NCBI GenBank assembly: GCA_964654805.1
Contig: CAZZJU010000002.1
Coordinates: forward strand, 1 to 35,467
Length of the DNA stretch: 35,467 bases
Origin: an uncultured Thermotogae bacterium
GTDB lineage: Bacteria > Bipolaricaulota > Bipolaricaulia > UBA7950 > UBA9294
Direction of reading: 5' to 3'
The notes beneath the pieces are model-generated. The model saw only the letters and a program-made list of their open reading frames with translations, did not search any database and had not been told where the DNA came from. Both the position numbers and the translations under genes were made by a program. Shown here piece after piece: positions 20,535 to 30,801 of the stretch. Every line of letters begins with the position of its first letter. Positions within the stretch are counted from its first letter, which is position 1.

Positions 20535-21515
20535 TCATATGCTGGGATCTTCTCCTGCCAATTTTTGCCGCAAGCGGGAGAGCATGTCAGTGACCATAGT
20601 GCTAAGATCGAATTTCGGTTCCCATCCCCATTCTTCTCGTGCGGCGGAGTCATCGATCCGCTTCGGCCAGGAATCAGCAATCTCCTGGCGGAAATCGGGA
20701 TGGAATTCATAGGTGAACTCTGGGATATGTTTTTTGATTTCGAGCGCTAATTCCTCAGCGGAGAAGCTCATGCCAGCGAGGTTGAAATCGCAGTGATGCT
20801 TGAGGCGATTAAAATCAGCCTCCATCAGTTCGATCGTGGCACGAATGCAATCCGGCATGTACATCATCGGAAGCACGGTGTCCGCGCGGACGAAGAAGTT
20901 GTAATGCTCTTCCTGTAGTGCCTTGTAGAACACTTCAACCGCATAGTCGGTCGTCCCACCGCCAGGTAGGGTCTCGCTCGAGATGATTCCGGGATATCTC
21001 ACTCCGCGAACGTCAAGGCCAAACCGGCGCACGTAGTAGTTACCGAGTAGTTCTCCTGTGACTTTAGTCAGGCCGTACATCGTAGTCGGCCGCAAGACGG
21101 TCTCCTGAGGCGCAGGATCGCGCGGGGTTTCCGGCCCGAACACGGCGATCGAACTCGGAACGAAGACGCGGGTCATGTTGTTGATTCTTGCCACCTCAAG
21201 CACATTATAAAGCCCGTTTATGTTCACCTGCCAGGCAAGATCAGGTTTTTCTTCCCCCACTGCCGACAGGATCGCTGCCATGTGAAATATTGTGTCGATC
21301 TCGTATTTCTGTACCACCTCTTCGATCCTGACCCTGTCAGTAACGTCGACATGCTCGATCGGACCCGAATCACGTAGTTTAGGCGATGGTGGGGTGATGT
21401 GATCGGTAGCGATCACGTTCTCCGCTCCGTACCGCTCTCGTAGGGCTAGCGTGAGTTCCGAACCGATCTGCCCGACAGCTCCAGTGACCAGTATGTGCTT
21501 CATCCGCTTTTCCAA
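20535..21515 (-). CDS. NAD-dependent epimerase/dehydratase-fold (extended SDR) enzyme, L-threonine 3-dehydrogenase-like
   Basis: Rossmann motif TGAVGQIGS and catalytic YGLTK (YxxxK). From memory, it resembles SDR-type threonine dehydrogenases through ..RYPGIIS..GGGTTDYAVEVFY..LPMMYMPD..IPEF. TTG 21515 lies 6 nt after SD AAAGGAG (21522-21528). ATG 21503 is the alternative start. Confidence 0.7.
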   Translation of the reverse strand: MEKRMKHILVTGAVGQIGSELTLALRERYGAENVIATDHITPPSPKLRDSGPIEHVDVTDRVRIEEVVQKYEIDTIFHMAAILSAVGEEKPDLAWQVNINGLYNVLEVARINNMTRVFVPSSIAVFGPETPRDPAPQETVLRPTTMYGLTKVTGELLGNYYVRRFGLDVRGVRYPGIISSETLPGGGTTDYAVEVFYKALQEEHYNFFVRADTVLPMMYMPDCIRATIELMEADFNRLKHHCDFNLAGMSFSAEELALEIKKHIPEFTYEFHPDFRQEIADSWPKRIDDSAAREEWGWEPKFDLSTMVTDMLSRLRQKLAGEDPSI

Positions 21516-21530
21516 ATTTATCTCCTTTCT

Positions 21531-22277
21531 TTAGAGAAACTCAAATTTCCCCTTTCCGCAGCACGGGCAGGCCTCATCCCGGGGGATAATTTGGGTGGAG
21601 AACCTTTCCTGCCAAAGATCCAGTGTGATAAGTCGGGTTGGGACTTCCACTGCACCGAGGAGAATTTTGATCCCTTCTGCAGCGGCGATCGCTGCGATGG
21701 CGCGCGGGACCGCGTTCAGAAGCCCACTTGTTCCTGCGGTGAGAACTGCGCTGTCAGGTGGTGGGTTTGGGATGAGACAACGTAAACATGCCCCTTTTCC
21801 GGGAATTATTGGCATTACTTCTCCGTATGTTCCAGCTACAGCCGCGAATACCCAAGGAACGCCGTGTTTGATACACGCATCGTTTGCCACATACCGAGAC
21901 GGATAGTTATCCAATCCGTCGAGCACTATATCCGTTTTCGTCACTAACTCTTCAATATTTGCCGGTCCGATTCGCATGACACGATAGTCAATATGTATCT
22001 CGGAGTTGACTTTTCGTAAATGCTCTGCAAGAATCTCCGCCTTCGCGCGTCCTACATCCTCTTCGGTCACGACACTCTGCCGCTGCAGGTTGGATAATTC
22101 GAGCAAATCATTGTCGACCAGGGTGACTCTTCCCACTCCGGCCCTCACTAGAAGTTCGGCAACATTAGAGCCAAGCGCACCGCAACCAAGGACAAGGATA
22201 CGCGATTCACGTAATCGTACCTGGCCGGTGTGACCTATCTCAGGCAGGTCGATCTGCCGTTCGTAACGATTCTCCAT
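21531..22277 (-). CDS. MoeB/ThiF-family E1-like adenylyltransferase
   Basis: YERQIDLPEIGHTGQVRLRESRILVLGCGALGSNVAELLVRAGVGRVTLVDNDLLELSNLQRQ (nucleotide-binding fold). Two CxxC pairs (CLRC, CPCC), as in the E. coli MoeB/ThiF zinc site. 248 aa. ATG 22277 lies 7 nt after SD AAGGAG. ThiF versus MoeB cannot be resolved by eye. Confidence 0.85.
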   Translation of the reverse strand: MENRYERQIDLPEIGHTGQVRLRESRILVLGCGALGSNVAELLVRAGVGRVTLVDNDLLELSNLQRQSVVTEEDVGRAKAEILAEHLRKVNSEIHIDYRVMRIGPANIEELVTKTDIVLDGLDNYPSRYVANDACIKHGVPWVFAAVAGTYGEVMPIIPGKGACLRCLIPNPPPDSAVLTAGTSGLLNAVPRAIAAIAAAEGIKILLGAVEVPTRLITLDLWQERFSTQIIPRDEACPCCGKGKFEFL

Positions 22278-22290
22278 GGGTTCTCTCCTT

Positions 22291-25200
22291 TTAGAAGGTG
22301 GCGGTTACGGTGAGCTCAAAAAGCACGCTATTATATAGATTGCCGTCCGATTTGAGCCCGGTCAGGTAGGAGGAGGAAAGGGAAGCACTCCATGTGTCGG
22401 ATAGCGTTACGTCAGTTCCTCCGCGCAAGCTCAAGTTGAACTGGGGACGGGTAGCCCCTTCTGCGTAGCGACTGTTCAGTACTATCCTAGCAGAGACGGT
22501 CTTCGAAAGGGGATAGATGAAGGTATTTGTCAGATTGCCGGTTAAGTTCAGCTTTTCTTTCTCTTCACTTGTACGGAGGGAAAACGATAGTTCATCGCTT
22601 ATACCGCCTTGAGGTCTGTAGGATAACTTACCAATCAAGCTGCGATTAAGCCGTGGTTTTGCTACTCCGTTATAGATGACCGAGCTGAGATTTTGCGTGT
22701 ATGTAATACTGGGACGTAGATCAGTAATGCCCGAGTACGACAACCGAACCGTAAGACGATCCGAGACCTGTTCCCGCGGTTGCCATAATCCGGAAAACTC
22801 ATGGCTATAGTTAATTGTCGTTTTGAACTCGGAGTAGTCTATCGTTACAGTTCCGCCTCCACTTACCGTCCATACCCCGTTTTTGTCCTTGAAAGAAACA
22901 TTGGCGACAGGGCTCAGTTGCCAATCACCGATCTTAAGTTTTACTGGACGCAGATTGATTTTGCCAGTTTGATTACCTGTAATGGCTTCGCTTCCTAATG
23001 ATCTATTTAGTTTCATCTCGTAGTTTGCACTTACGATCCCGATGGTAAACCGGTGTGACCAATCAAGTTTGCCGGTGAAAGTTTCGCTGCCTGTACGGTT
23101 TTTTGACACATTTACTGGGCGAGTGAAATTCCCCGAGATTGTCAGGTCATGGGTTGCCCGGAGAGTAGCGGCCAAACTCAAATTCGTGTTCCGGGTGGTT
23201 TTAGACGGGGACACCGCCCAGGCAAAAGTATCGGTCCAATTGAGGTTTAAATCCAACGAGCTTAGGAATAGTTTGTCGGAGAGCCCTATTCTGTAGCTCA
23301 GTTTGCCGGAATCAAAACCGGGCGTTTCCCGATTGTCGTCAACCAACCCATGGTTAATGGCGACTGACAGTTTGGGGCCGAATATCCATGAAAGGGAGAC
23401 GGAATTATCCAACGTGGTTTTGGGATCATCAGTTGAAGAGTCGATCAAATAGTAGGAATGAGAAGCGGTTAATGACAGATCATCGGATAAGTTGGCCTTC
23501 CCATCGATTGTCCAGCCGGTCTTATCTTCTCTGCCCAAGCGGCCTATCGCGGTGAATCGAGGGGAAATGCTCTCGAATGTTCCGTCGAGTGTAACTGGGC
23601 CTAGATCTCTGGTGAAGCTTGCACGGGCGATCCCGCCACGGTCGGTGTGTAAGGCAGCCGGGATATCAGTGAATCGTCCGGGATCCCGTCCAGCGATCTT
23701 AGTTTCGCTTGAAGTATAGGATTCGTATGTTCCATCCTCTGCATGGAGTACTTCGATTTCGTAGTCCGAGTTAGCGCGTGTACCCGCCCACATTCCGCCT
23801 TCACCGTCGGGCGAAATCGCGGTTACTGCGAGGTGCGAATGAATCTCTTCCCCGGCGAGGGAGTGCAAGCCGCTTTCGTCCCCGTACCAAAGGACTCCGT
23901 TCACTGAGGCAACGGCGTAGACCGGTTTGCCGAAGACAAGCCACCCGGTTCCTATTCCATCCTTGAACGCGCGTAATCCAAGATCACTCGCGGCATAGAT
24001 AATTCCGTTTTTAATGAGCAGGGCGTTTACCTTTACCCCGTTCATCCCTGACAGCGGGGACAACGATTCGGTTGCTGGATCGAGTGAGAACAATCCTTTA
24101 TCGGTTCCGATGTAGACAATCGAATCATCTATCGCAATAGCCCGGATGGTGCCAAGATCGATGATTTTCTGATCGGTGTAAACCTGCCAACTTGTCGGAT
24201 CGTCCATCTTGTCCATCTTCACTGCCGCGATGCCTGCTTCAGTACCCATCCATAGCACACCATCTGCGATCGCTAGCGAATGTACAGCGCTGTTCGGAAG
24301 GCCAGCGTCCGTGGAGTAGCGCTCCCAATTACCCACTTGATCAAGGGGTGATTCTCCCTCCATACTGAGAACGGTGATTCCCGCAGAGGTGGCAAAGAAA
24401 ACGTGGTTGTCAACTGCCTTTATGTCGTAGACCCGGTTGGCAGACAGTCCATCCGATGCTGTATATAAGCTCCAAGTTCCATTGTGATATACGCTCACTC
24501 CAGCGGCATGGGCGAAGAATGCATAACCGTTTGTGCAAACAATTGCATTGACCATGTTTGGCATGTTGGCCCGGGCATTGTCATCAAACGGGAAGCGGTT
24601 ATTGCTGTAACCGAGAGTAAAATCGGCTGAGAACCCATCGAGGGTTACATGGCCGATGATTCCGGATACGGTATGAGTATTCGGCATAGTGCGTACCTGA
24701 TCCGGATCAGTAAGCGGAGTAGGGCTGTCCGCTGCTTGTAGTATGCTTCCTTCCATAGTGATGGCATTGGACAGGGGGAGTTTGATGCTTGCTCCGTAAA
24801 AGTTACGTGAGTATTCAGCAGTACTGCCCAACCCCCCCCGTGCTCGTTCATAATCGATGCGGATGGTATCATTATCTTTTACTTCGACGAGTAATATTAA
24901 TAGACCGGTTTCGTAATCGATTGTGTAATCTGAGTTACGAGTGAGCAGCTTACCGTTGAGGTAGACTTTCTCACTTCCCGAGACGATGGAAAATCCGAGT
25001 GGATAGACGTTGCCTGAGACGGAATAACTAAATGATACGCGCATAGCGCTCTTCTTGCTCGAGAAGAACTCGTCCGGAAACTTAATTTCCAGGATACCTT
25101 GTTTATAGAACACGGTCTTCTGATAATCAGCGAGATCAGGGTCAGTGATCGGTCGGAAGGTAGTTCCGTTTATGCTCACCTCTACCGTTACTGAACCGGG

Positions 25201-26235
25201 CTTTATGTTCTTTTCGCCGAGAAAGTAGAACCGATGTCGTTCCCCGGAGGAGAGAGAGTATGAAGTAGTATCTACGACTAGGGACGTTTGTTCCATAAGA
25301 GAATTGAGAAAAGCTTTTTCGTAATCGGTACCGACGTTCAACGGATATCTCTTCTTATCATTTCCGGTGAGCCCGGATGACTCATTGTAAGTTTTAATGT
25401 ATGCTAAAAGGATGTTACGAATTAGAGTTTGCGGCTCCTGAAGCAGTATGAGATAGTCAGATTGATCGGAGACCACGACAAACGTGCCCTGCTTCAGCTC
25501 GTTAGTCGGTGAAGCGGAGATAGTTTCGTAAAGGTAACCTAATCCGTAATTCGAAAGAAGGTTACGCAATGTGTTAGAAGCGTCAAAACGGAGATCTACT
25601 TCCGAAAAACCCTCGATGTAAGGGGCACTCAGGCGATAGTGATAGAGTCCGTTGAGGTTCTTTGTGTAAGGTTGAGTTGCCCATGGTCGATCCTGCGGTG
25701 CAAAAGAGAACAGTATCTCGCCTTGCGCATTATGGCCGATGAACGTTTTGGATTCGGAAATCCCTTCGATGCGGGAAATGATGCCGGTGATGACCCCCCC
25801 ATCGGGCAGGTTGTAGTCGAGACGTGCTCCCTTAAGTTTCTTGTTGTATACGGCAAACGCTTCCTTCCCTGAAAGGGAGAAATCCCCAAATACGCCGTTT
25901 AAATCACCTGAATGCAGATACAGAGTAAGAGTCTGCATGCTCGGCGGTTCCTGGTCGTTGAAGTGCGCCTTAAGGGTGAGGATGGACAATGCTTCAGCAG
26001 TTATGTCTACAGCGAGAGTCTGATCGAGATCAAGCTGGTAAGGAGCCTGCCCAAGCCCCTGTGGATCACCGATCCCGTAGCGGAGAGTGAACGTTTTATG
26101 CCCGGAGATATTGGCGCTAAAGTTATTATTGTCCTGTCCGAATCCCACAACTAGCACAACCCCCAGGATAAGCCCTATGATTGCCAGCACGTTTATACTC
26201 ATCCGACTAAAAACTGTAAGTGACAGAAGCCCCAT
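22291..26235 (-). CDS. Very large envelope protein: N-terminal signal/anchor, ~550-aa uncharacterised region, 7-blade Reg_prop-like beta-propeller, ~440-aa C-terminal beta-barrel-like domain
   Basis: One uninterrupted ORF. ATG 26235 lies 5 nt after SD GGAGG (26241-26245); alternatives are ATG 26202 and TTG 26277. Hydrophobic segment INVLAIIGLILGVVLVVGF. Seven repeats of the form [V/I]xxIxxDxxGxxWxGTxxGLxxx (nt ~23698-24552). The last ~440 aa alternate hydrophobic and polar residues in short strands and end ..LFELTVTATF, the aromatic C-terminus typical of OMPs. Confidence 0.75.
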   Translation of the reverse strand: MGLLSLTVFSRMSINVLAIIGLILGVVLVVGFGQDNNNFSANISGHKTFTLRYGIGDPQGLGQAPYQLDLDQTLAVDITAEALSILTLKAHFNDQEPPSMQTLTLYLHSGDLNGVFGDFSLSGKEAFAVYNKKLKGARLDYNLPDGGVITGIISRIEGISESKTFIGHNAQGEILFSFAPQDRPWATQPYTKNLNGLYHYRLSAPYIEGFSEVDLRFDASNTLRNLLSNYGLGYLYETISASPTNELKQGTFVVVSDQSDYLILLQEPQTLIRNILLAYIKTYNESSGLTGNDKKRYPLNVGTDYEKAFLNSLMEQTSLVVDTTSYSLSSGERHRFYFLGEKNIKPGSVTVEVSINGTTFRPITDPDLADYQKTVFYKQGILEIKFPDEFFSSKKSAMRVSFSYSVSGNVYPLGFSIVSGSEKVYLNGKLLTRNSDYTIDYETGLLILLVEVKDNDTIRIDYERARGGLGSTAEYSRNFYGASIKLPLSNAITMEGSILQAADSPTPLTDPDQVRTMPNTHTVSGIIGHVTLDGFSADFTLGYSNNRFPFDDNARANMPNMVNAIVCTNGYAFFAHAAGVSVYHNGTWSLYTASDGLSANRVYDIKAVDNHVFFATSAGITVLSMEGESPLDQVGNWERYSTDAGLPNSAVHSLAIADGVLWMGTEAGIAAVKMDKMDDPTSWQVYTDQKIIDLGTIRAIAIDDSIVYIGTDKGLFSLDPATESLSPLSGMNGVKVNALLIKNGIIYAASDLGLRAFKDGIGTGWLVFGKPVYAVASVNGVLWYGDESGLHSLAGEEIHSHLAVTAISPDGEGGMWAGTRANSDYEIEVLHAEDGTYESYTSSETKIAGRDPGRFTDIPAALHTDRGGIARASFTRDLGPVTLDGTFESISPRFTAIGRLGREDKTGWTIDGKANLSDDLSLTASHSYYLIDSSTDDPKTTLDNSVSLSWIFGPKLSVAINHGLVDDNRETPGFDSGKLSYRIGLSDKLFLSSLDLNLNWTDTFAWAVSPSKTTRNTNLSLAATLRATHDLTISGNFTRPVNVSKNRTGSETFTGKLDWSHRFTIGIVSANYEMKLNRSLGSEAITGNQTGKINLRPVKLKIGDWQLSPVANVSFKDKNGVWTVSGGGTVTIDYSEFKTTINYSHEFSGLWQPREQVSDRLTVRLSYSGITDLRPSITYTQNLSSVIYNGVAKPRLNRSLIGKLSYRPQGGISDELSFSLRTSEEKEKLNLTGNLTNTFIYPLSKTVSARIVLNSRYAEGATRPQFNLSLRGGTDVTLSDTWSASLSSSYLTGLKSDGNLYNSVLFELTVTATF

Positions 26236-27064
26236 AACTTCCTCCAAGTTCACCGCTCTCGCGGTAGGAGATATCAATACGCATTGCTGAAAACCGTACA
26301 GATAATCCCATGCTCGGTCCGCTTGAATTCAATCCTGCTCTTACTCCGAGTCTCCCCACCCAGCCCTCGATCCCAGCGGAGAACTCAAGGTCAGGTGAAA
26401 AGAGGCCGTTGGCCACAACGGAGAGAGTCCACTCCACTTCATCCGAAGGGTGTAATCGAAGCGCTGCTCCGATATCGAACCCCATTATCCACTCCCCGCT
26501 TACTCCTGTGGAATATTCCACAGCTTGGGAAACAATATTCTCCAGCATCAGCCCGATCCGTAAATTGTCGGTTGCAATGAGTACAGCTGGATCGAACGCC
26601 CACCCAAAGGCGGTGTAAGGGCTTTCAACTTGGTACAACTTAACGCGTATTCCAAAACCCACAGGCCCGATTGCGAAACCGGTGCCAGCGACTCCGCACT
26701 GGCTGACGTAAGAAAAGCCGCCAGAGTCAGTCTGGATCCAGCCAGATTCCAAGCGCATCAGTTCTGCGCCCAGATAGGGGAGGCTGATTCCAACAGTACC
26801 GTAGGACAGAACTCCGTAAGCTTGGGAGAAGTAAGAACTGACCGAAATCCGCTTTTCCCAGCCTAATCCAGCTGGATTGTAGAAAGCCGCGCTTTCGTCG
26901 TCCGCTAGCGGTAGGAATGCTCCTCCAAGGCCTGCGGCACGTGCACCAGTTCCGAGATGGAGAATCGCGGCTTGGTTGGAGTATTGAGAGGCGACGGAGG
27001 AGAATCCGATACTGAACACCAAGAAAACGAGGCCTGTTACTATCTGCGTGGTTATTCTACTCAT
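26207..27064 (-). CDS. Small outer-membrane beta-barrel protein with FadL/PorV-type N-terminal hatch motif
   Basis: Signal peptide MSRITTQIVTGLVFLVFSIGFSSVAS. Then LGTGARAAGLGGAFLPLADDESAAFYNPAGLG; compare the mature N-terminus of E. coli FadL, ..[27 protein letters not shown] (from memory). Gly/aromatic-rich alternating strands. Ends ..GASVTYSF. The ATG shares ATGA with the protease stop. Confidence 0.7.
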   Translation of the reverse strand: MSRITTQIVTGLVFLVFSIGFSSVASQYSNQAAILHLGTGARAAGLGGAFLPLADDESAAFYNPAGLGWEKRISVSSYFSQAYGVLSYGTVGISLPYLGAELMRLESGWIQTDSGGFSYVSQCGVAGTGFAIGPVGFGIRVKLYQVESPYTAFGWAFDPAVLIATDNLRIGLMLENIVSQAVEYSTGVSGEWIMGFDIGAALRLHPSDEVEWTLSVVANGLFSPDLEFSAGIEGWVGRLGVRAGLNSSGPSMGLSVRFSAMRIDISYRESGELGGSYGASVTYSF

Positions 27065-29199
27065 CTCGCTATCACCAACCTACCGATAGCGGTTTGGCTT
27101 GAGCCGTCCGAAAGCATGAACAGATATAACCCAGGAGCGAGTGGTAATCCGCCTGAATCTTCTAAATTCCAGTTGTATGTCCCTTCACCCGGAGGGAGCT
27201 GAGCGGTAAACACCCTCTTCCCAACGACATTGTATATAGTTAATTCTGCTTTATCCGCGTCCTCGGGCACGGTGTAAATAAAACGGGCAAAGTCGTGCAC
27301 AGGATTCTCTGTCAGCTGGATCGATAGCTTGCTCTCACTGGTCGAAGGTGAAGGAGTTACAGCAGCAACTGCAGCATCGGCAGCTAGCTTACCCCATCCC
27401 CACATATTATTTGGTACAACACCGGTGAATTTGTCCGATTTTGCATTTTGCCGGAGTTTTTCCTTTATCTCATCGGCGGTGAGGGTGGGATCAATGGAAA
27501 GCATGAGGGCAACTGTTCCGGTTACATGAGGAGCGGCCATACTCGTCCCGAGGAGGAGGGTGTGGACCCCATCCGGACAGGTGAGATAATCAGCAGCTGG
27601 GGCGGATGACGACATTGCCGAAGCGATCCATGCTCCAGGGGCTGTAATGTCCGGTTTGATCCTGCCATCGCGTGTTGGACCCCGGCTGGAAAAGTAAGAC
27701 AGATCCCCGATAGGGTATTGCGAGGAGAAATCCTGTTCCCCAGCGCGGGATGGCCAACTGTTTTTGGTGTTAAACGCGCCTACAGTGATCAGATGTGGAG
27801 CATTGCCCGGCTCGTCGATGGTTTCTGCTGCGTCTCCGCCCAGAATCGTGCCGTTGTCGGACGTTATCCAACCGTCGAATCTCCCCCCGCCGGAGGCATC
27901 GGTCACGGTGATCTGCCAGGGCATATGCGGGGTAAGTCCAGATAAGTTCAAGATTGCTTCTTTATCCCCGTTATTTGGGTTAACTCCCCCAGAGGCGTTG
28001 TCGACGTACACATTTCCCGCGTAAGTACTCTCCGAATCGCTGGTTCCGGATGGCACGGAGAGCGAGACTCCCCCCGGGGGAACGACAGTGATTGTGAACG
28101 CTGATTCCCCGGGGTACCATAAAATAAAGTCTAACGAGCCATTGGAGGGAACGAGGGAGAAAGTGTAAGCATCACCGTGAAGGCTGCGTCCCACGTGGAT
28201 TAGCTGGTCCCCCTCATTTCCGGCAGAAACAACGATAGCTCTGCCTGATCCCTGAGCAAGCTCATCCAACCCTTGCTCGAACAGGCTTGTCCCATCATGC
28301 GGTCCGTCCTGTCCCCCGAGGCTCAGGTTGACTACAGCCGGGAGCCCAAGTTCACTTGCCTTATCAAATATGTAGCGCACTCCAGCGAGGATATCCGAAG
28401 TATAAAAAGTTGTCTTCACTGATATGATCCATGCTTGCGGTGCTACCCCAATAAATCCGGATGAAGATGCTGACCCGTCCCCAGCAGCGATTCCCATTAC
28501 ATGTGTACCATGACCATCGGTGTCCTTTTCCCGTACCTCTCCTTCTCCGGGGCCGGAACCGCTTGCCAGATCGGCTTCTATCTCCTGCCTGGTGTATGTA
28601 ACGTTGAAAAGTCCGGTTTGGTCCAGGATATAGAGAATACGGGACGATTCTTCAATTCCGTCTCCGTCTGAATCATAGCGGAAGTCCAGGTGAGAGTAGT
28701 CGAGTCCGGTATCAACTGCACCGATGATTACTCCTTTACCGGTAATCGGAGGGACTTGGGAATGGAGGATATCGGCTCCGATTGCTGGAACGCTCCGATC
28801 AAGGGTCGGTTTTGCTTTCCAGGCTGGTTCCACGTAGATAACATCAGAAGCCGCGGCCAGGGTGAGCAATCCCTCAATGGGAACGCGCATCCCAATGATT
28901 GTCCCGGTGGACACAGTAACGGGAAATCCGAGAAAACTCGTTCCGAAGAACGGATGGGAAAGCTTGACCAATACACGTATTGGTTCGTCAGTGGGAAAGG
29001 GAAACGTGATTGTAGAACCAGGTGGCAGGTTGCCGAATCCGGGAATACTTTCAGCGGTAGCATCGGTATCGCCCGCAAGGAGCAGACGCAGGTACGGAGA
29101 CAGCTTTGCTGCCATCGCGGCCGTGCTTACCCATAATAGGCCTGTACACCCAAGTACGAGTAAAAAAACGAATACCAATCGTCTACAGGTTTTCATCAT
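27061..29199 (-). CDS. Secreted subtilisin-family (S8) serine protease with a C-terminal T9SS/FlgD-Ig-type sorting-like domain
   Basis: Catalytic triad motifs in D-H-S order: GAVDTGLDY, DGHGTHVMGIAAG, GTSMAAPHVTGTVAL. Oxyanion motif VVSAGNEG. Signal peptide MMKTCRRLVFVFLLVLGCTGLLWVSTAAMA. The last ~89 aa are ..LTENPVHDFARFIYTVPEDADKAELTIYNVVGKRVFTAQLPPGEGTYNWNLEDSGGLPLAPGLYLFMLSDGSSQTAIGRLVIAR. Confidence 0.9.
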   Translation of the reverse strand: MMKTCRRLVFVFLLVLGCTGLLWVSTAAMAAKLSPYLRLLLAGDTDATAESIPGFGNLPPGSTITFPFPTDEPIRVLVKLSHPFFGTSFLGFPVTVSTGTIIGMRVPIEGLLTLAAASDVIYVEPAWKAKPTLDRSVPAIGADILHSQVPPITGKGVIIGAVDTGLDYSHLDFRYDSDGDGIEESSRILYILDQTGLFNVTYTRQEIEADLASGSGPGEGEVREKDTDGHGTHVMGIAAGDGSASSSGFIGVAPQAWIISVKTTFYTSDILAGVRYIFDKASELGLPAVVNLSLGGQDGPHDGTSLFEQGLDELAQGSGRAIVVSAGNEGDQLIHVGRSLHGDAYTFSLVPSNGSLDFILWYPGESAFTITVVPPGGVSLSVPSGTSDSESTYAGNVYVDNASGGVNPNNGDKEAILNLSGLTPHMPWQITVTDASGGGRFDGWITSDNGTILGGDAAETIDEPGNAPHLITVGAFNTKNSWPSRAGEQDFSSQYPIGDLSYFSSRGPTRDGRIKPDITAPGAWIASAMSSSAPAADYLTCPDGVHTLLLGTSMAAPHVTGTVALMLSIDPTLTADEIKEKLRQNAKSDKFTGVVPNNMWGWGKLAADAAVAAVTPSPSTSESKLSIQLTENPVHDFARFIYTVPEDADKAELTIYNVVGKRVFTAQLPPGEGTYNWNLEDSGGLPLAPGLYLFMLSDGSSQTAIGRLVIAR

Positions 29200-29468
29200 T
29201 CACGAAGTTTACTATACAGGGTCAGCGCAGACAAAGCAGCGTCAAGTGCCCCATTAAAGACGAGTTATTCTTCACCAAGCAATAGACACTGACTTACCTG
29301 CATTCTTATTGACTGATTGTGTAATTTTCAACACATTAGTTGCCGGGAGTGAGCCCTGTAGCGTTGTTTGGATAACATGTAGATCTGCACGCAGCGATTG
29401 ATCACCGAGAGTAGTTGTTGGTAATTGAAGGTTGGTCTTGATAGATTACTTCCGGACAGTTTTCTTTC

Positions 29469-29498
29469 TTTACAACCTGCAGTAGCCTGTGGTATCAT
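29469..29498 (+). promoter_or_regulatory. Candidate sigma70-type promoter for the DUF4139-like gene and downstream + strand genes
   Basis: -35 TTTACA (29469-29474), 18-nt spacer, extended -10 TGgTATCAT (29490-29498). The predicted start near 29505 leaves a short leader carrying SD AAGGAGGGGG before ATG 29518. Motif match only. Confidence 0.45.
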
Positions 29499-29517
29499 CG
29501 ATCAAAGGAGGGGGACC

Positions 29518-30801
29518 ATGTTGGGGAAAATAGCGCCGATCATCGTTTTGATGGTACTAGCGCTGGGGGTAACAACCAGTGCTGCAGGAACAGTTACGTT
29601 ATACTCCCAAGGGATCGCGTGCATCGATGAAACGCAGACCATTACGCTGAATAAAGGGACTAATACCGTGCGGATCTCGGTCCCGTCTGGGTTCGTCCCT
29701 GATTCACTTACGATCGAGTTCAACGGGGAGGTAATCTCTCAGTCGTTCCATGCCGGTACGGCGGATTCGGTGCTTGCAGCCGCGATTGGCAAAAAGATAG
29801 AAGTGGTAGGTAAAGACGGTACGGTCTATCGCGGCATCCTCATTTCGACGGCCGGAGAGATTGTTCTACGGGAAGAAAATGGAACGATCGACCTGATCTC
29901 AAATCCGTCTCGGATCAGCATTTCTGGTAAAGATATTGAGCTTTCTCCTTACCTCGAACTTGTTCTATCCGCCGCTGCATCGGGAAAGGAACCTCTGCGG
30001 CTTACTTACCTCTCGACCGGCTTCAATTGGGCAATGAGCTATGTGGGAACCTTATCCGCGGATGGAAAAGCGCTGAGCCTCACCGGCTGGGCCCGGTTGG
30101 AAAACAACACTGATTATTCACTTTCTGGGATGAGCGTCCAACTTGTGGCGGGACAGGTTAACCAAGTGGAAAAAAGTTACTCGGGAATGCGGGTTGCGGC
30201 GATGGCTGCTCCGCCGCTTCCAGAAGAAAACGCGTTCGAATATCATCTTTATACTCTTCCTGTTCCGATCGATCTCCCGGCCGGTAAAACTGTGCTGATC
30301 CCCTACGGCACGTATTCCGGAATCCCGGTGAAGAAGATTTACACTTTCAAAGGATCCGGAGTTGAAGTCTCCTTGCAATTCAGGAACGACACGGATAATG
30401 GCCTGGGAGTTCCTCTTCCTGCTGGAGACGTTCGCTTGTTCCAGGCGCGATCTGATGGAACGATTTTTATCGGAGCCGACTCAATTGGACATACCCCGAT
30501 AGGAACAGAGGTTTCCCTTGCAGCGGGGAGTGCATTCGATCTCACGGGCAAGAGGACCGAACTCTCGAACGTGAAGCTCTCCGGCTCGACCTACCGCGCT
30601 AGTTACCGAATCGAATTGCGCAATCATAAAGACGAAGCGGTTACGGTAAACGTGCTTGAGCGTCCAGCAGGGAAGTCATGGAAAGTTATTACCTCATCAC
30701 AGTCGTACACCCGAGTGGATTCTGGGACGATAAAATTCGTCGTTAATGTTCCGGCAAACGGGGAAAGCGAGGTCACTTATACCGTTGAATACAGTTACTG
30801 A
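29518..30801 (+). CDS. Secreted DUF4140/DUF4139-like protein (MuiA-like family), function unknown
   Basis: ATG 29518 follows SD AAAGGAGGGGG. Signal peptide MLGKIAPIIVLMVLALGVTTSAAG. N-terminal VTLYSQGIACIDETQTITLNKGTNTVRISVPSGFVPDSLTIE fits the DUF4140 pattern. LRLTYLSTGFNWAMSYVGTLSADGKALSLTGWARLENNTDYSLSGMSVQLVAGQVNQV fits the DUF4139 pattern. Both patterns are recalled from memory. The ORF-track start 29425 is rejected because it lies upstream of the promoter and SD. Confidence 0.75.
   Translation: MLGKIAPIIVLMVLALGVTTSAAGTVTLYSQGIACIDETQTITLNKGTNTVRISVPSGFVPDSLTIEFNGEVISQSFHAGTADSVLAAAIGKKIEVVGKDGTVYRGILISTAGEIVLREENGTIDLISNPSRISISGKDIELSPYLELVLSAAASGKEPLRLTYLSTGFNWAMSYVGTLSADGKALSLTGWARLENNTDYSLSGMSVQLVAGQVNQVEKSYSGMRVAAMAAPPLPEENAFEYHLYTLPVPIDLPAGKTVLIPYGTYSGIPVKKIYTFKGSGVEVSLQFRNDTDNGLGVPLPAGDVRLFQARSDGTIFIGADSIGHTPIGTEVSLAAGSAFDLTGKRTELSNVKLSGSTYRASYRIELRNHKDEAVTVNVLERPAGKSWKVITSSQSYTRVDSGTIKFVVNVPANGESEVTYTVEYSY

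What the first reader, a model, noticed from the sequence alone, without database searches (positions are those of the whole stretch)
22291..26235. Giant OM protein with an unusual architecture: unknown ~550-aa N-terminal region, 7-blade Reg_prop-like propeller, ~440-aa C-terminal barrel
Seen: residues ~576-860 in ORF-track numbering (nt 23698-24552) contain seven consecutive repeats. Examples are NRVYDIKAVDNHVFFATSAGITVLS, SAVHSLAIADGVLWMGTEAGIAAV, TIRAIAIDDSIVYIGTDKGLFSLD, VKVNALLIKNGIIYAASDLGLRAF and KPVYAVASVNGVLWYGDESGLHSL. This is the pattern I know from 'two-component regulator propeller' repeats of Bacteroides hybrid sensor kinases. Residues ~885-1328 (nt 22294-23625) are short alternating-polarity strands ending in Phe, typical of an OM beta-barrel and large enough for well over 20 strands. 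The N-terminal region (nt 24553-26235) contains two similar segments, GSVTVEVSINGTTFRPITDPDLADYQKTVFYKQGILEI and GSEKVYLNGKLLTRNSDYTIDYETGLLILL, but I cannot assign a family. A sensor-type propeller fused to a very large barrel is not an architecture I can name.
Basis: partly seen in the sequence, partly recalled or inferred. Interest (0 to 1): 0.7.

Follow-up and report, generated by a model that had tools for sequence, protein, structure and literature searches.

The report
Compact SprA-like secretion pore with propeller
The giant gene encodes a half-size relative of SprA, the outer-membrane pore of the type IX secretion system, with a seven-bladed propeller inserted into its barrel, and it sits in a conserved operon with a miniature PorV carrier and a protease carrying a type IX sorting tag, in a bacterial phylum (Bipolaricaulota) where I found no report of such a system.

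Summary
The ORF is real: 22291-26235, minus strand, 1314 aa. It has about 110 full-length homologues, and all the named ones are Bipolaricaulota/Acetothermia.

The C-terminal 450 aa form 25 long beta-strands ending in Phe. The layout is not three modules in a row. Four barrel-length strands precede the propeller, so it is an insertion in a larger barrel.

The AF2 model (pLDDT 88.8) has SprA, the T9SS translocon, as its best PDB match (Foldseek E 8e-20). LptD scores 5e-9. Two collinear N-terminal blocks also match SprA by sequence.

The 285-aa upstream gene is PorV-like (Foldseek top hit F. johnsoniae PorV, TM 0.75). The next gene upstream is an S8 subtilase with a T9SS type-A-like C-terminal domain (CTD). 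This triad is conserved in most of 46 Bipolaricaulota loci. PKD-repeat proteins carry the same CTD.

Best reading: a compact T9SS-like translocon/carrier/cargo module in an LPS-free, toga-bearing phylum.

Not shown: transport itself, the energy source (no motor genes were examined), which side the propeller faces, and barrel closure.

Verdict: a new variant of a known kind. Interest is high.

The parts
22291..26235 (-). Gene for the 1314-aa SprA-like outer-membrane protein (stop codon included).
   Evidence: ORF. ATG with a Shine-Dalgarno sequence. Identical 1314-aa database protein P0001. AF2 pLDDT 88.8. Foldseek top hits are SprA 8gl6_A, 8gl8_A and 6h3i_A.
26134..26235 (-). N-terminal signal peptide or anchor (MGLLSLTVFSRMSINVLAIIGLILGVVLVVGFGQ).
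   Evidence: Read directly from the translation. The cleavage site is inferred.
25705..26100 (-). Conserved N-terminal beta-hairpin region (residues 46-177 from the ATG). It aligns with SprA residues 145-262 and probably forms the first barrel strands.
   Evidence: The family profile against PDB sequences gives SprA 6h3i_A at E 1.9e-6, with query 41-153 aligned to SprA 145-262. Four 9-residue strands appear in the modelled part. Conservation is 0.60. Residues 1-114 were not modelled.
25051..25704 (-). Inserted alpha/beta domain of unknown family (residues 178-395).
   Evidence: DSSP on the model shows mixed helices and short strands. No Pfam or NCBIfam match.
24718..25047 (-). Block shared with SprA (residues 397-506). 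It holds the motif VSGSEKVYLNGKLLTRNSDYTIDYETG plus the first long strands, and is the most conserved part of the protein.
   Evidence: NCBIfam TIGR04189 SprA, E 6.4e-9, model positions 584-691. hhalign probability 98.9% to about 1000-aa outer-membrane proteins of FCB-type phyla (the Fibrobacterota-Chlorobiota-Bacteroidota group). Conservation is 0.68.
24595..24813 (-). Four barrel-length strands (13-14 residues each) immediately before the propeller. The invariant MPNTH motif lies in the loop between strands 2 and 3.
   Evidence: DSSP strands at model 361-373, 378-391, 406-418 and 421-433. Invariant columns M506, P507 and H510.
23716..24546 (-). Seven-bladed Reg_prop-type beta-propeller, inserted between barrel strands.
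   Evidence: Pfam Reg_prop and PorZ_N_b_propeller. Profile hits to 4a2l, 3ott and 3va6 at E 5.5e-29 to 6e-25, and to PorZ 5m11 at 1.5e-5. Seven blades in DSSP, six of four strands and one of three.
22294..23646 (-). C-terminal part of the barrel: 25 long antiparallel strands with short turns, ending in Phe.
   Evidence: DSSP. Terminal ...LTVTATF. This is the least conserved region, 0.43.
26207..27064 (-). Upstream gene for a 285-aa miniature PorV/PorQ-family barrel. It overlaps the start of the giant gene by 29 nt.
   Evidence: NCBIfam PorV_fam E 4.5e-15 over its full length. Profile against PDB gives PorV 6h3i_F at E 3e-3. AF2 pLDDT 91. Foldseek top hit is PorV 8gl6_F at E 9e-12, TM 0.75. Present beside the giant gene in 44 of the 46 Bipolaricaulota loci.
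27061..29199 (-). First gene of the operon, a 712-aa S8 subtilase with a signal peptide. It overlaps the PorV-like start by 4 nt.
   Evidence: Pfam Peptidase_S8 E 5.8e-45. The motifs DTG, HGTH and GTSMAAP are visible in the translation. Present beside the PorV-like gene in 42 of the 46 loci.
27064..27348 (-). C-terminal sorting-type domain (CTD) of the subtilase.
   Evidence: TIGR04183 T9SS type A sorting domain 23.4 bits (cut-off 23). FlgD_ig 28.4 bits (cut-off 27). Profile against PDB gives the PorU CTD at E 3.7e-7 and the PorZ CTD at 2e-3. R/K six residues from the C-terminus in 19 of 19 sequences. The same CTD sits on PKD-repeat proteins.

Best explanation

Architecture:
- The barrel is assembled from N-terminal hairpins, four strands before a seven-bladed propeller, and 25 strands after it.
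- An unknown alpha/beta domain and the propeller are inserts in barrel loops.
- From strand parity and loop lengths I infer that both inserts lie on the extracellular side. There they would form the counterpart of the SprA cap.

Operon: the gene is the third in a tightly overlapping operon. The order is an S8 subtilase with a T9SS-type C-terminal domain (CTD), then a miniature PorV, then the SprA-like barrel.

Proposed mechanism (inferred by analogy with F. johnsoniae SprA-PorV, PMC10994853):
1. CTD-tagged proteins are exported by Sec. These include the subtilase and PKD-repeat surface proteins.
2. They enter the barrel from the periplasm.
3. The CTD is bound by loops of the PorV-like carrier docked on the barrel.
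4. The cargo leaves to the cell surface together with the carrier.

Two further roles are speculative:
- The operon-encoded subtilase may be more than cargo. It could be the CTD-processing enzyme, a functional analogue of PorU.
- The propeller may bind a surface glycan or the cargo, a PorZ-like role supplied in cis.

What is shown: homology and fold of the two barrels, the CTD, and the conserved synteny.
What is inferred: transport, topology, and the roles of the protease and the propeller.
For: 1. The AF2 model of residues 115-1314 has pLDDT 88.8 and pTM 0.71. Its best PDB matches are the three SprA entries: E 8e-20 to 6e-18, TM 0.44-0.45 normalised on the query. The query includes a 285-aa propeller that the sequence searches match to propeller proteins, not to SprA. 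LptD scores 5e-9 (TM 0.15) and Deinococcus SlpA scores 3e-7.
2. There are two collinear sequence matches to SprA. The N-terminal strands align with SprA 145-262. Residues 397-506 match SprA model positions 584-691 at E 6.4e-9.
3. The neighbouring gene matches the PorV/PorQ family at E 4.5e-15. Its AF2 model (pLDDT 91) has F. johnsoniae PorV as top fold hit: E 9e-12, TM 0.75. The next hits are OmpG at 2.6e-8 and FadL at 2e-7. Both top hits, SprA and PorV, come from the same cryo-EM complex, 8gl6.
4. The subtilase C-terminus passes the T9SS type A sorting-domain cut-off. Its closest solved relatives by sequence are the CTDs of PorU and PorZ. It keeps a basic residue near the C-terminus, like the near-invariant Lys of type A CTDs (PMC10994853).
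5. The same CTD ends PKD-repeat proteins of 430-1290 aa. Some of these are encoded directly downstream of the giant gene. It therefore behaves as a shared tag.
6. The triad with the same order and strand is found in most of 46 Bipolaricaulota loci, down to 30% identity, and in a closed genome. The genes overlap by 4 and 29 nt.
7. The host phylum is diderm, with a toga-like outer membrane and an S-layer (PMC6092417; bioRxiv 10.1101/2025.11.21.689855).
Against: - The scores are far below the curated family cut-offs: SprA 33.6 bits against 200, PorV_fam 56 against 90, PorZ 19.5 against 260.
- The protein is about half the length of SprA (1314 aa against 2403 for the PDB chain).
- Sequence similarity covers only about 220 residues.
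- I could not inspect model coordinates. Barrel closure, strand number, a lateral opening, a cap and the side of the propeller are not established.
- The first 114 residues were not modelled.
- No motor or ring genes (GldLM/PorLM, PorKN) were looked for, and none lie within the conserved neighbourhood.
- The reviews I searched describe the T9SS as confined to Bacteroidota or the FCB group.
- The phylum is reported to lack LPS (PMC6092417). PorU/PorZ-type attachment to anionic LPS therefore cannot apply as such.
- The CTD fold (FlgD_ig-like) is very widespread. It has 55,311 representatives, many of them internal tandem repeats. It is not diagnostic on its own.
Confidence: 0.62

Rival explanations
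1. The protein is an anchoring or attachment platform, not a translocon. The barrel plus surface propeller would be a fused counterpart of PorQ and PorZ. It would hold CTD proteins, or the S-layer, on the toga together with the PorV-like protein and the protease. Transport across the outer membrane would happen elsewhere.
For: The propeller matches the Pfam PorZ_N_b_propeller family and PorZ 5m11. The CTD is closest to those of PorU and PorZ, the attachment-complex proteins. The small barrel fits the combined PorV/PorQ family, with PorQ at E 7.5e-8. The phylum has an S-layer on its toga (bioRxiv 10.1101/2025.11.21.689855).
Against: The barrel is far larger than PorQ, and its best fold match is SprA, not a 14-strand barrel. 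The N-terminal blocks match SprA specifically. The propeller matches generic Reg_prop sensors (E 5.5e-29) much better than PorZ (1.5e-5). The small barrel's top fold hit is PorV.
Confidence: 0.15
2. The protein has an SprA-fold barrel used for something other than protein export. It could be a large solute or glycan channel, or a structural toga protein whose surface propeller binds polysaccharide. The adjacent protease and small barrel would then be only loosely related neighbours.
For: Reg_prop propellers in Bacteroides hybrid sensors bind glycans (background knowledge; the hits are). The locus sits among housekeeping genes, and the family is apparently universal in the phylum. Proteins of about 1000 aa in other phyla share the SprA-like block without a detectable PorV-like neighbour.
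Against: The three genes overlap and stay together from 85% down to 30% identity. The neighbours are exactly the two partner types an SprA translocon needs, a PorV-like carrier and a CTD-tagged protein.
Confidence: 0.15
3. The protein belongs to another known large-barrel family: LptD, BamA/TamA, a PapC-type usher or a TonB-dependent receptor.
For: LptD structures appear among the fold hits at E 5e-9 to 1e-6.
Against: No Pfam or NCBIfam match to any of these families. LptD hits are 11 orders of magnitude weaker than SprA, with TM 0.15. No BamA, usher or TonB-dependent receptor appears in the top 50. No POTRA, plug or TonB-box domain was found.
Confidence: 0.03
4. The protein is a signal-sensing protein, as the 'two-component regulator propeller' name suggests.
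For: Reg_prop repeats are typical of hybrid two-component sensors.
Against: There is no Y_Y_Y, histidine kinase, receiver or DNA-binding domain. The propeller is embedded in an outer-membrane barrel that ends with a beta-signal Phe.
Confidence: 0.02

Closest known systems
SprA/Sov, the T9SS outer-membrane translocon (F. johnsoniae SprA; PDB 6H3I, 8GL6, 8GL8; NCBIfam TIGR04189)
   Same: Best fold match by a wide margin. Two collinear sequence blocks are shared. Both are giant barrels with folded inserts, partnered with a PorV-type barrel and CTD-tagged proteins.
   Different: 1314 aa against 2403. It scores 33.6 bits against the 200-bit family cut-off. It carries a seven-bladed propeller insert that is not matched to SprA. 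It occurs in Bipolaricaulota, outside the FCB group. It is encoded in one operon with its partners. No motor, ring, Plug, PPI, SprE or SkpA partner is known here.
PorV (T9SS carrier, 14-strand FadL-type barrel; PDB 8GL6 chain F) and PorQ
   Same: The upstream 285-aa protein has PorV as top fold hit at TM 0.75. It shares the N-terminal ARAxGxGxA...NPA motif and the C-terminal strands, and matches the PorV/PorQ family at E 4.5e-15.
   Different: About 100 residues shorter than PorV (402 aa). It falls below the family cut-off (56 against 90 bits). Whether its loops reach into the large barrel is unknown.
PorZ (T9SS attachment-complex protein with two propellers and a CTD; PDB 5M11)
   Same: Same Reg_prop-type propeller. 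The Pfam PorZ_N_b_propeller score is just above its cut-off, and the profile hit is E 1.5e-5. The operon's CTD also resembles the PorZ CTD.
   Different: There is one propeller, not two. It is fused into a barrel rather than being a soluble surface protein. The NCBIfam PorZ score is 19.5 against 260. PorZ's ligand, anionic LPS, is not expected in an LPS-free phylum.
PorU (T9SS CTD signal peptidase/sortase; PDB 6ZA2)
   Same: A protease that itself carries a T9SS CTD and is associated with PorV. The operon's subtilase CTD is closest to the PorU CTD at E 3.7e-7.
   Different: PorU is a gingipain-type cysteine peptidase (background knowledge). Here the catalytic domain is an S8 serine subtilase. 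A processing role is only an analogy.
Periplasmic propellers of Bacteroides hybrid two-component sensors (BT4663 4A2L, BT4673 3OTT/3VA6; Pfam Reg_prop)
   Same: These are the strongest sequence relatives of the propeller, at E 5.5e-29 to 6e-25.
   Different: Those are tandem propellers followed by Y_Y_Y, a transmembrane segment and kinase domains in the inner membrane. Here a single propeller is inserted in an outer-membrane barrel.
Unannotated outer-membrane proteins of about 960-1275 aa in Fibrobacter, Cloacimonas, WOR-3, Latescibacterota, Hydrothermota, Balneolales (loci L047-L064)
   Same: They share the VPGSE[KR]VYLNG...DYxIDY block (hhalign probability 98.9%). They share the N-terminal strands weakly. 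They have a signal peptide and end in an aromatic residue or Leu.
   Different: No propeller. No detectable PorV-like neighbour. No demonstrable similarity over the rest of the protein. No Pfam family.

Membership tests
SprA/Sov T9SS translocon (NCBIfam TIGR04189) | Full-length match above the curated 200-bit cut-off | tested here: not met
   33.6 bits, E 6.4e-9. Only residues 411-520 (ORF-track) match, against model positions 584-691 of 2319.
SprA/Sov T9SS translocon (NCBIfam TIGR04189) | SprA-type giant barrel fold | tested here: met
   Foldseek top three hits are 8gl6_A, 8gl8_A and 6h3i_A, E 8e-20 to 6e-18, TM 0.44-0.45 on the query. The next barrel family, LptD, scores 5e-9.
SprA/Sov T9SS translocon (NCBIfam TIGR04189) | 36-strand barrel of about 2400 aa with an extracellular cap and a lateral opening | tested here: inconclusive
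   The length is 1314 aa, so size is not met. DSSP shows 29 long strands plus N-terminal hairpins, which is compatible with about 36. The cap and the lateral opening could not be examined.
SprA/Sov T9SS translocon (NCBIfam TIGR04189) | Works with a PorV-type carrier and CTD-tagged substrates | tested here: met
   At the gene level only. A PorV-like gene and a CTD-tagged subtilase sit in the same operon in most of 46 loci. Physical interaction was not tested.
SprA/Sov T9SS translocon (NCBIfam TIGR04189) | Dependence on the PMF-driven GldLM/PorLM motor and the PorKN ring | not tested
   Only 10-kb flanks were available, and no such genes lie in the conserved neighbourhood.
PorV/PorQ family (NCBIfam NF033709), applied to the upstream 285-aa gene | Score above the curated 90-bit cut-off | tested here: not met
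   56.1 bits, E 4.5e-15, aligned over the full length, residues 31-285 against model 3-326.
PorV/PorQ family (NCBIfam NF033709), applied to the upstream 285-aa gene | FadL-type barrel of about 14 strands closest in structure to PorV | tested here: met
   AF2 pLDDT 91 with about 14-15 strands. Foldseek top hit is PorV 8gl6_F at E 9e-12, TM 0.75/0.60.
T9SS type A C-terminal sorting domain (TIGR04183 / Pfam Por_Secre_tail), applied to the subtilase C-terminus | Match at the extreme C-terminus above the curated cut-off | tested here: met
   TIGR04183 scores 23.4 bits against a cut-off of 23, residues 632-710 of 712. This is marginal. Pfam Por_Secre_tail scores only 14.8 against 27, while FlgD_ig scores 28.4 against 27.
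T9SS type A C-terminal sorting domain (TIGR04183 / Pfam Por_Secre_tail), applied to the subtilase C-terminus | The same tag is shared by several unrelated secreted proteins, with a conserved basic residue near the C-terminus | tested here: met
   PKD-repeat proteins carry it at their C-terminus. R/K at position -6 in 19 of 19 sequences.
Reg_prop beta-propeller (Pfam PF07494) | Repeat match above cut-off and a closed multi-blade propeller | tested here: met
   29.5 bits against 20.4. E 5.5e-29 to 4a2l. Seven blades in DSSP, six of four strands and one of three.
PorZ (NCBIfam NF052228) | Equivalog score of at least 260 bits; two propellers plus a CTD | tested here: not met
   19.5 bits. There is a single propeller and no CTD on this protein.
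LptD / BamA-TamA / PapC usher / TonB-dependent receptor | Family-specific domains (LptD jellyroll, POTRA, usher plug, TonB plug) and best fold match | tested here: not met
   No Pfam or NCBIfam hits. LptD is only at E 5e-9 and TM 0.15. The others are absent from the top 50 fold hits.

The most novel reading that the evidence does not exclude
Bipolaricaulota carry a self-contained three-gene type-IX-like export and sorting module. It would consist of an SprA-like pore with a built-in PorZ-like propeller, a mini-PorV carrier, and a CTD-tagged subtilase acting as the signal peptidase. It would work without the GldLM/PorKN motor and without LPS. If so, the SprA-PorV core would be an old, portable outer-membrane export device that predates or exists independently of the Bacteroidota machinery. 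It might deliver the surface or S-layer proteins of the toga.
Probability: 0.35. Interest if true: 0.9.

Novelty: new variant of a known kind. Interest (0 to 1): 0.78.

Why it matters
The reviews I searched describe the T9SS as a machine of about 20 components restricted to Bacteroidota or the FCB group. How its translocon is energised is still under study, and cargo attachment is known only for LPS-containing bacteria.

This locus offers a different case:
- It is a half-size SprA homologue, genetically bundled with a minimal PorV and a tagged protease.
- It is conserved across a deep-branching phylum that is LPS-free and toga-bearing.

If it is a working translocon, three things follow:
- It gives a natural minimal version of the translocon-carrier pair for structural and mechanistic work.
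- It tests whether the motor is intrinsic to the transport step.
- It bears on how proteins reach the surface of toga-type outer membranes, about which almost nothing is known.

It also assigns a function to a family of more than 100 'hypothetical' 1300-aa proteins. A related unannotated set of outer-membrane proteins in Fibrobacter, Cloacimonas, WOR-3 and Latescibacterota is flagged as well.

Tried and rejected
I modelled residues 115-1314 instead, so the first 114 residues are not modelled.
2. The 72-sequence alignment was too diverse for the locus search. I redid it with 15 closer sequences.
3. I rejected them as a repeat.
4. A search of the 5.8-billion-protein collection with a CTD profile returned only 13 short fragments. 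It was uninformative for cargo range. The exhaustive representative search worked better but carries no taxonomy.
I used the last homologue search to obtain admissible sequences.
6. A profile-profile comparison with the roughly 1000-aa proteins of FCB-type phyla shows homology over about 100 columns only. I do not claim they are orthologues.
7. A PorV-like HMM found no partner next to those proteins.
8. The promoter and terminator scan of the operon gave nothing beyond chance.
9. Literature searches for T9SS in Bipolaricaulota or Acetothermia, and for SprA-like or PorV2 terms, found nothing relevant. The 2018 SprA structure paper is not held.
10. Cluster look-ups gave no names or taxonomy for the window's own proteins. 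The organism is assigned only through named homologues. Some records are labelled 'uncultured Thermotogae', and one is labelled Neomarinimicrobiota. I treat these as labelling or binning issues, not as evidence for other phyla.
11. LptD, BamA, usher, TonB-receptor and sensor readings were considered and rejected on domain content and fold ranking.

Full report
THE GENE

The ORF listing gives one ORF, 22291..26277 on the minus strand, 1328 aa from a TTG. The ATG at 26235 is preceded by GGAGGAAGTT.

The N-terminus is a signal-peptide-like hydrophobic stretch, and the protein ends ...LTVTATF.

Subtract 14 for numbering from the ATG. My AF2 model residue 1 is ATG residue 115.

CHECK OF THE OBSERVATION

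Propeller.
- Pfam finds Reg_prop (29.5 bits, cut-off 20.4) and PorZ_N_b_propeller (27.5 bits, cut-off 27) in the repeat region.
- A profile of 72 family members hits the solved propellers of Bacteroides hybrid sensors at E 5.5e-29 to 2.5e-20, and PorZ at 1.5e-5.
- In the AF2 model, DSSP shows seven blades (six of four strands, one of three) between model residues 450 and 726. This confirms the seven repeats.

Barrel.
- The last 450 residues form 25 strands of 10-17 residues with turns of 2-14 residues. This confirms a very large barrel.
- Four further strands of 13-14 residues lie directly before the propeller.
- The first ~130 mature residues are conserved hairpins.
- The propeller is therefore an insertion within the barrel, not a middle module.

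N-terminal segments.
- The two similar N-terminal segments are not related at profile level (probability 0.3%).

WHAT THE PROTEIN RESEMBLES

A phmmer search against PDB sequences finds nothing. Three other lines all point to SprA.
- NCBIfam gives a local hit to SprA/Sov. It is E 6.4e-9, residues 411-520 on ORF-track numbering, against model positions 584-691.
- The family profile hits SprA 6h3i_A at E 1.9e-6. Its best stretch aligns the N-terminal strands with SprA 145-262.
- The AF2 model has mean pLDDT 88.8 and pTM 0.71. Its three best PDB matches are the SprA chains of 8gl6, 8gl8 and 6h3i, with E 8e-20 to 6e-18 and TM 0.44-0.45 normalised on the 1200-residue query.

The TM value is obtained even though 285 query residues are a propeller that the sequence searches match to propeller proteins, not to SprA. 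Next in the list come isolated propellers (about 1e-11), LptD (5e-9, TM 0.15) and Deinococcus SlpA (3e-7). BamA, ushers and TonB-dependent receptors are not in the top 50.

I conclude that the protein is a distant, half-size homologue of the T9SS translocon. It fails the curated SprA cut-off by a wide margin (33.6 against 200 bits). I therefore do not file it as an SprA orthologue.

TOPOLOGY (INFERRED)

An outer-membrane barrel ends in the periplasm. Counting back 25 strands from the C-terminus puts the propeller junction on the extracellular side.

With that register, three things fit:
- The 2-residue turn between the third and fourth pre-propeller strands is periplasmic.
- The 14-residue loop carrying the invariant MPNTH motif is extracellular.
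- The longer loops of the C-terminal barrel (9, 7 and 14 residues) fall on the extracellular side.

This would place both inserts on the outside, the 220-aa alpha/beta domain and the propeller. In SprA the cap sits there (PMC10994853).

The inference depends on not counting the short polar strand RDPGRFT as a membrane strand. I had no coordinates, so the topology is unproven. Strand number is also open. There are 29 long strands plus up to about 8-10 N-terminal ones, which is compatible with SprA's 36.

Conservation is highest in the SprA-like block (0.68) and in the N-terminal and pre-propeller strands (0.58-0.60). It is lowest in the C-terminal barrel (0.43).

THE NEIGHBOURS

PorV-like gene.
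- The gene immediately upstream (26207..27064, 285 aa, ending in Phe) overlaps the giant gene by 29 nt.
- It matches the NCBIfam PorV/PorQ family over its whole length (E 4.5e-15, 56 bits, cut-off 90).
- A family profile finds F. johnsoniae PorV as the only meaningful PDB sequence hit (E 3e-3).
- Its AF2 model (pLDDT 91, pTM 0.82) has PorV chain 8gl6_F as top fold match. That match is E 9e-12, TM 0.75 on the query. It is ahead of OmpG (2.6e-8) and FadL (2e-7).

Subtilase gene.
- The next gene upstream (27061..29199, 4-nt overlap) is an S8 subtilase (E 5.8e-45) with an intact DTG/HGTH/GTSMAAP triad context.
- Its last ~90 residues pass, narrowly, the T9SS type A sorting-domain model (23.4 against 23 bits). 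They also pass Pfam FlgD_ig.
- A profile of 19 such C-termini finds the CTD of PorU as its best PDB hit (E 3.7e-7). Next come the CTD of PorZ, then FlgD, then an F. johnsoniae CTD.
- All 19 keep Arg or Lys six residues from the end. This recalls the near-invariant Lys of type A CTDs that contacts PorV (PMC10994853).

DISTRIBUTION AND SYNTENY

About 110 full-length homologues exist, 1266-1471 aa, down to 28% identity. Every one that carries an organism name is Candidatus Bipolaricaulota, Acetothermia or Bipolaricaulia, except one labelled 'archaeon'.

In one genome per GTDB species, 46 loci encode a full or contig-truncated homologue.
- Most are named Bipolaricaulota or Acetothermia.
- Some TPA records are labelled 'uncultured Thermotogae'.
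- One is labelled Thermotoga sp. and one Neomarinimicrobiota. I take these as labelling or binning problems, but I did not verify this.

In 42 of the 46 loci the order subtilase / PorV-like / giant gene is kept on one strand. The four exceptions are loci where the contig ends near the giant gene. The same triad is in the closed genome CP070725.1.

The locus sits among housekeeping genes. On one side are rpoC, fusA, the ribosomal protein genes, secY and rpoA. On the other are PGM and leuS.

In one subclade a PKD-repeat protein with the same CTD lies just downstream. An exhaustive profile search shows this. The closest single, C-terminal copies of the CTD are on subtilases and on PKD-repeat proteins of 430-1290 aa. 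The tag is therefore shared by unrelated passengers.

The same search is also a caution. The fold is very common, with 55,311 representatives, many of them internal tandem repeats. The CTD alone proves little.

HOST BIOLOGY

Bipolaricaulota are Gram-negative-staining. They have a toga-like outer membrane carrying a hexagonal S-layer (bioRxiv 10.1101/2025.11.21.689855).

A closed genome was reported to lack LPS genes while encoding outer-membrane proteins (PMC6092417).

I found no paper linking the phylum to type IX secretion. T9SS reviews describe the system as confined to Bacteroidota or the FCB group.

MECHANISM PROPOSED

By analogy with the SprA-PorV cycle (PMC10994853):
1. Sec-exported, CTD-tagged proteins enter the barrel from the periplasm.
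2. The CTD binds loops of the PorV-like carrier docked on the barrel.
3. Carrier and cargo leave sideways to the surface.

The operon's subtilase is either the constitutive first cargo or the enzyme that removes the CTD. The second role would be PorU-like, performed by an unrelated catalytic fold.

The propeller, of the type that binds glycans in hybrid sensors and anionic LPS in PorZ (background knowledge), could hold a surface glycan, the S-layer or the cargo.

What is shown:
- Homology and fold of both barrels.
- The CTD and its sharing between proteins.
- The operon and its conservation.

What is inferred:
- Transport and docking.
- The topology of the inserts.
- The roles of the protease and the propeller.

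What is unknown:
- The energy source. No GldLM/PorKN genes were examined.

RIVALS

- An attachment platform (a fused PorQ/PorZ analogue) is possible. It fits the barrel size and the SprA-specific blocks less well.
- A non-export use of an SprA-fold barrel is possible. It does not explain why exactly a PorV-like barrel and a CTD-tagged protein are welded to it across the phylum.
- LptD, BamA, usher, TonB-receptor and sensor readings are disfavoured by domain content and fold ranking.

WIDER FAMILY

The conserved block VPGSE[KR]VYLNG...DYxIDY also occurs in unannotated outer-membrane proteins of 960-1275 aa. They come from Fibrobacter, Cloacimonas, WOR-3, Latescibacterota, Hydrothermota, Hatepunaea and Balneolales.
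- hhalign gives probability 98.9% over 99 columns.
- There is weak collinear similarity of the N-terminal strands.
- They have no propeller, no Pfam family and no detectable PorV-like neighbour.

They suggest that 'short SprA-like' barrels are widespread and unstudied.

VERDICT

The architecture is nameable after all: a compact SprA-like translocon with a propeller insert, in a T9SS-like three-gene module outside the known range of the system.

I rate it a new variant of a known kind. My confidence is about 0.85 that it is an SprA homologue and about 0.6 that it works as a CTD-protein translocon. Interest is 0.78.

Noticed in passing
L047-L064 (e.g. L055:9443-12328, L054:8717-12265, L051:2875-6150): Unannotated outer-membrane proteins of 960-1275 aa in Fibrobacter, Latescibacterota, Cloacimonas, WOR-3, Hydrothermota, Hatepunaea and Balneolales. 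They share the SprA-like block (VPGSE[KR]VYLNG..DY.IDY) and, weakly, the N-terminal strands. They have no propeller, no Pfam family and no PorV-like neighbour. Several have a signal-peptide gene of about 300 aa upstream and another barrel gene ending in Phe downstream.
   Followed up: partly
window 29425-30801 (+): A secreted 458-aa DUF4139 protein, transcribed divergently from the subtilase gene. It keeps this position in at least 11 related loci. Its function is unknown, and it could be a further component.
   Followed up: partly
window 21531-22277 (-) and 20535-21515 (-): A ThiF-family adenylyltransferase gene starts 13 nt after the giant gene's stop. It is conserved downstream in at least 16 loci. 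An NAD-dependent epimerase/dehydratase follows in the closest relatives only. The five genes are packed on one strand, so co-transcription or a link to a glycan pathway is possible but untested.
   Followed up: no
L039:15049-18063, L040:14687-17587, L041:14904-17906 (all minus strand): PKD-repeat proteins of about 1000 aa ending in the same CTD as the subtilase. They are encoded directly downstream of the giant gene in one Bipolaricaulota subclade and are likely additional cargo.
   Followed up: partly
P0082, P0090 (L065:10001-13393, closed genome CP070725.1): Some family members carry an extra Big_9/cadherin-like Ig domain at the N-terminus, before the first conserved strand. P0090 lacks the last ~300 residues of the barrel even though it lies in a closed genome. 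This may be a frameshift or a pseudogene.
   Followed up: partly
P0169, P0171, P0176, P0177 (distant hits of the PorV-like protein): Proteins of about 415 aa from unnamed bacteria combine a UPF0164/PorV-type barrel with a FlgD_ig (CTD-like) domain. The carrier-type barrel and the tag-type domain are fused in one chain.
   Followed up: no
L065:573-1367 (-) and L065:1-667 (-): In the closed Bipolaricaulota genome, a gene with a faint LptC hit lies next to an ABC ATPase gene, about 9 kb from the operon. This is odd for a phylum reported to lack LPS genes.
   Followed up: no
L002 (JAJRTG010000068.1), L034 (DYGJ01000047.1), several CAZ*/CAY* records: Records carrying clear orthologues of the operon (up to 74-78% identity) are labelled Neomarinimicrobiota, Thermotoga sp. 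or 'uncultured Thermotogae'. This is probably mis-binning or coarse taxonomic labelling of Bipolaricaulota MAGs.
   Followed up: no
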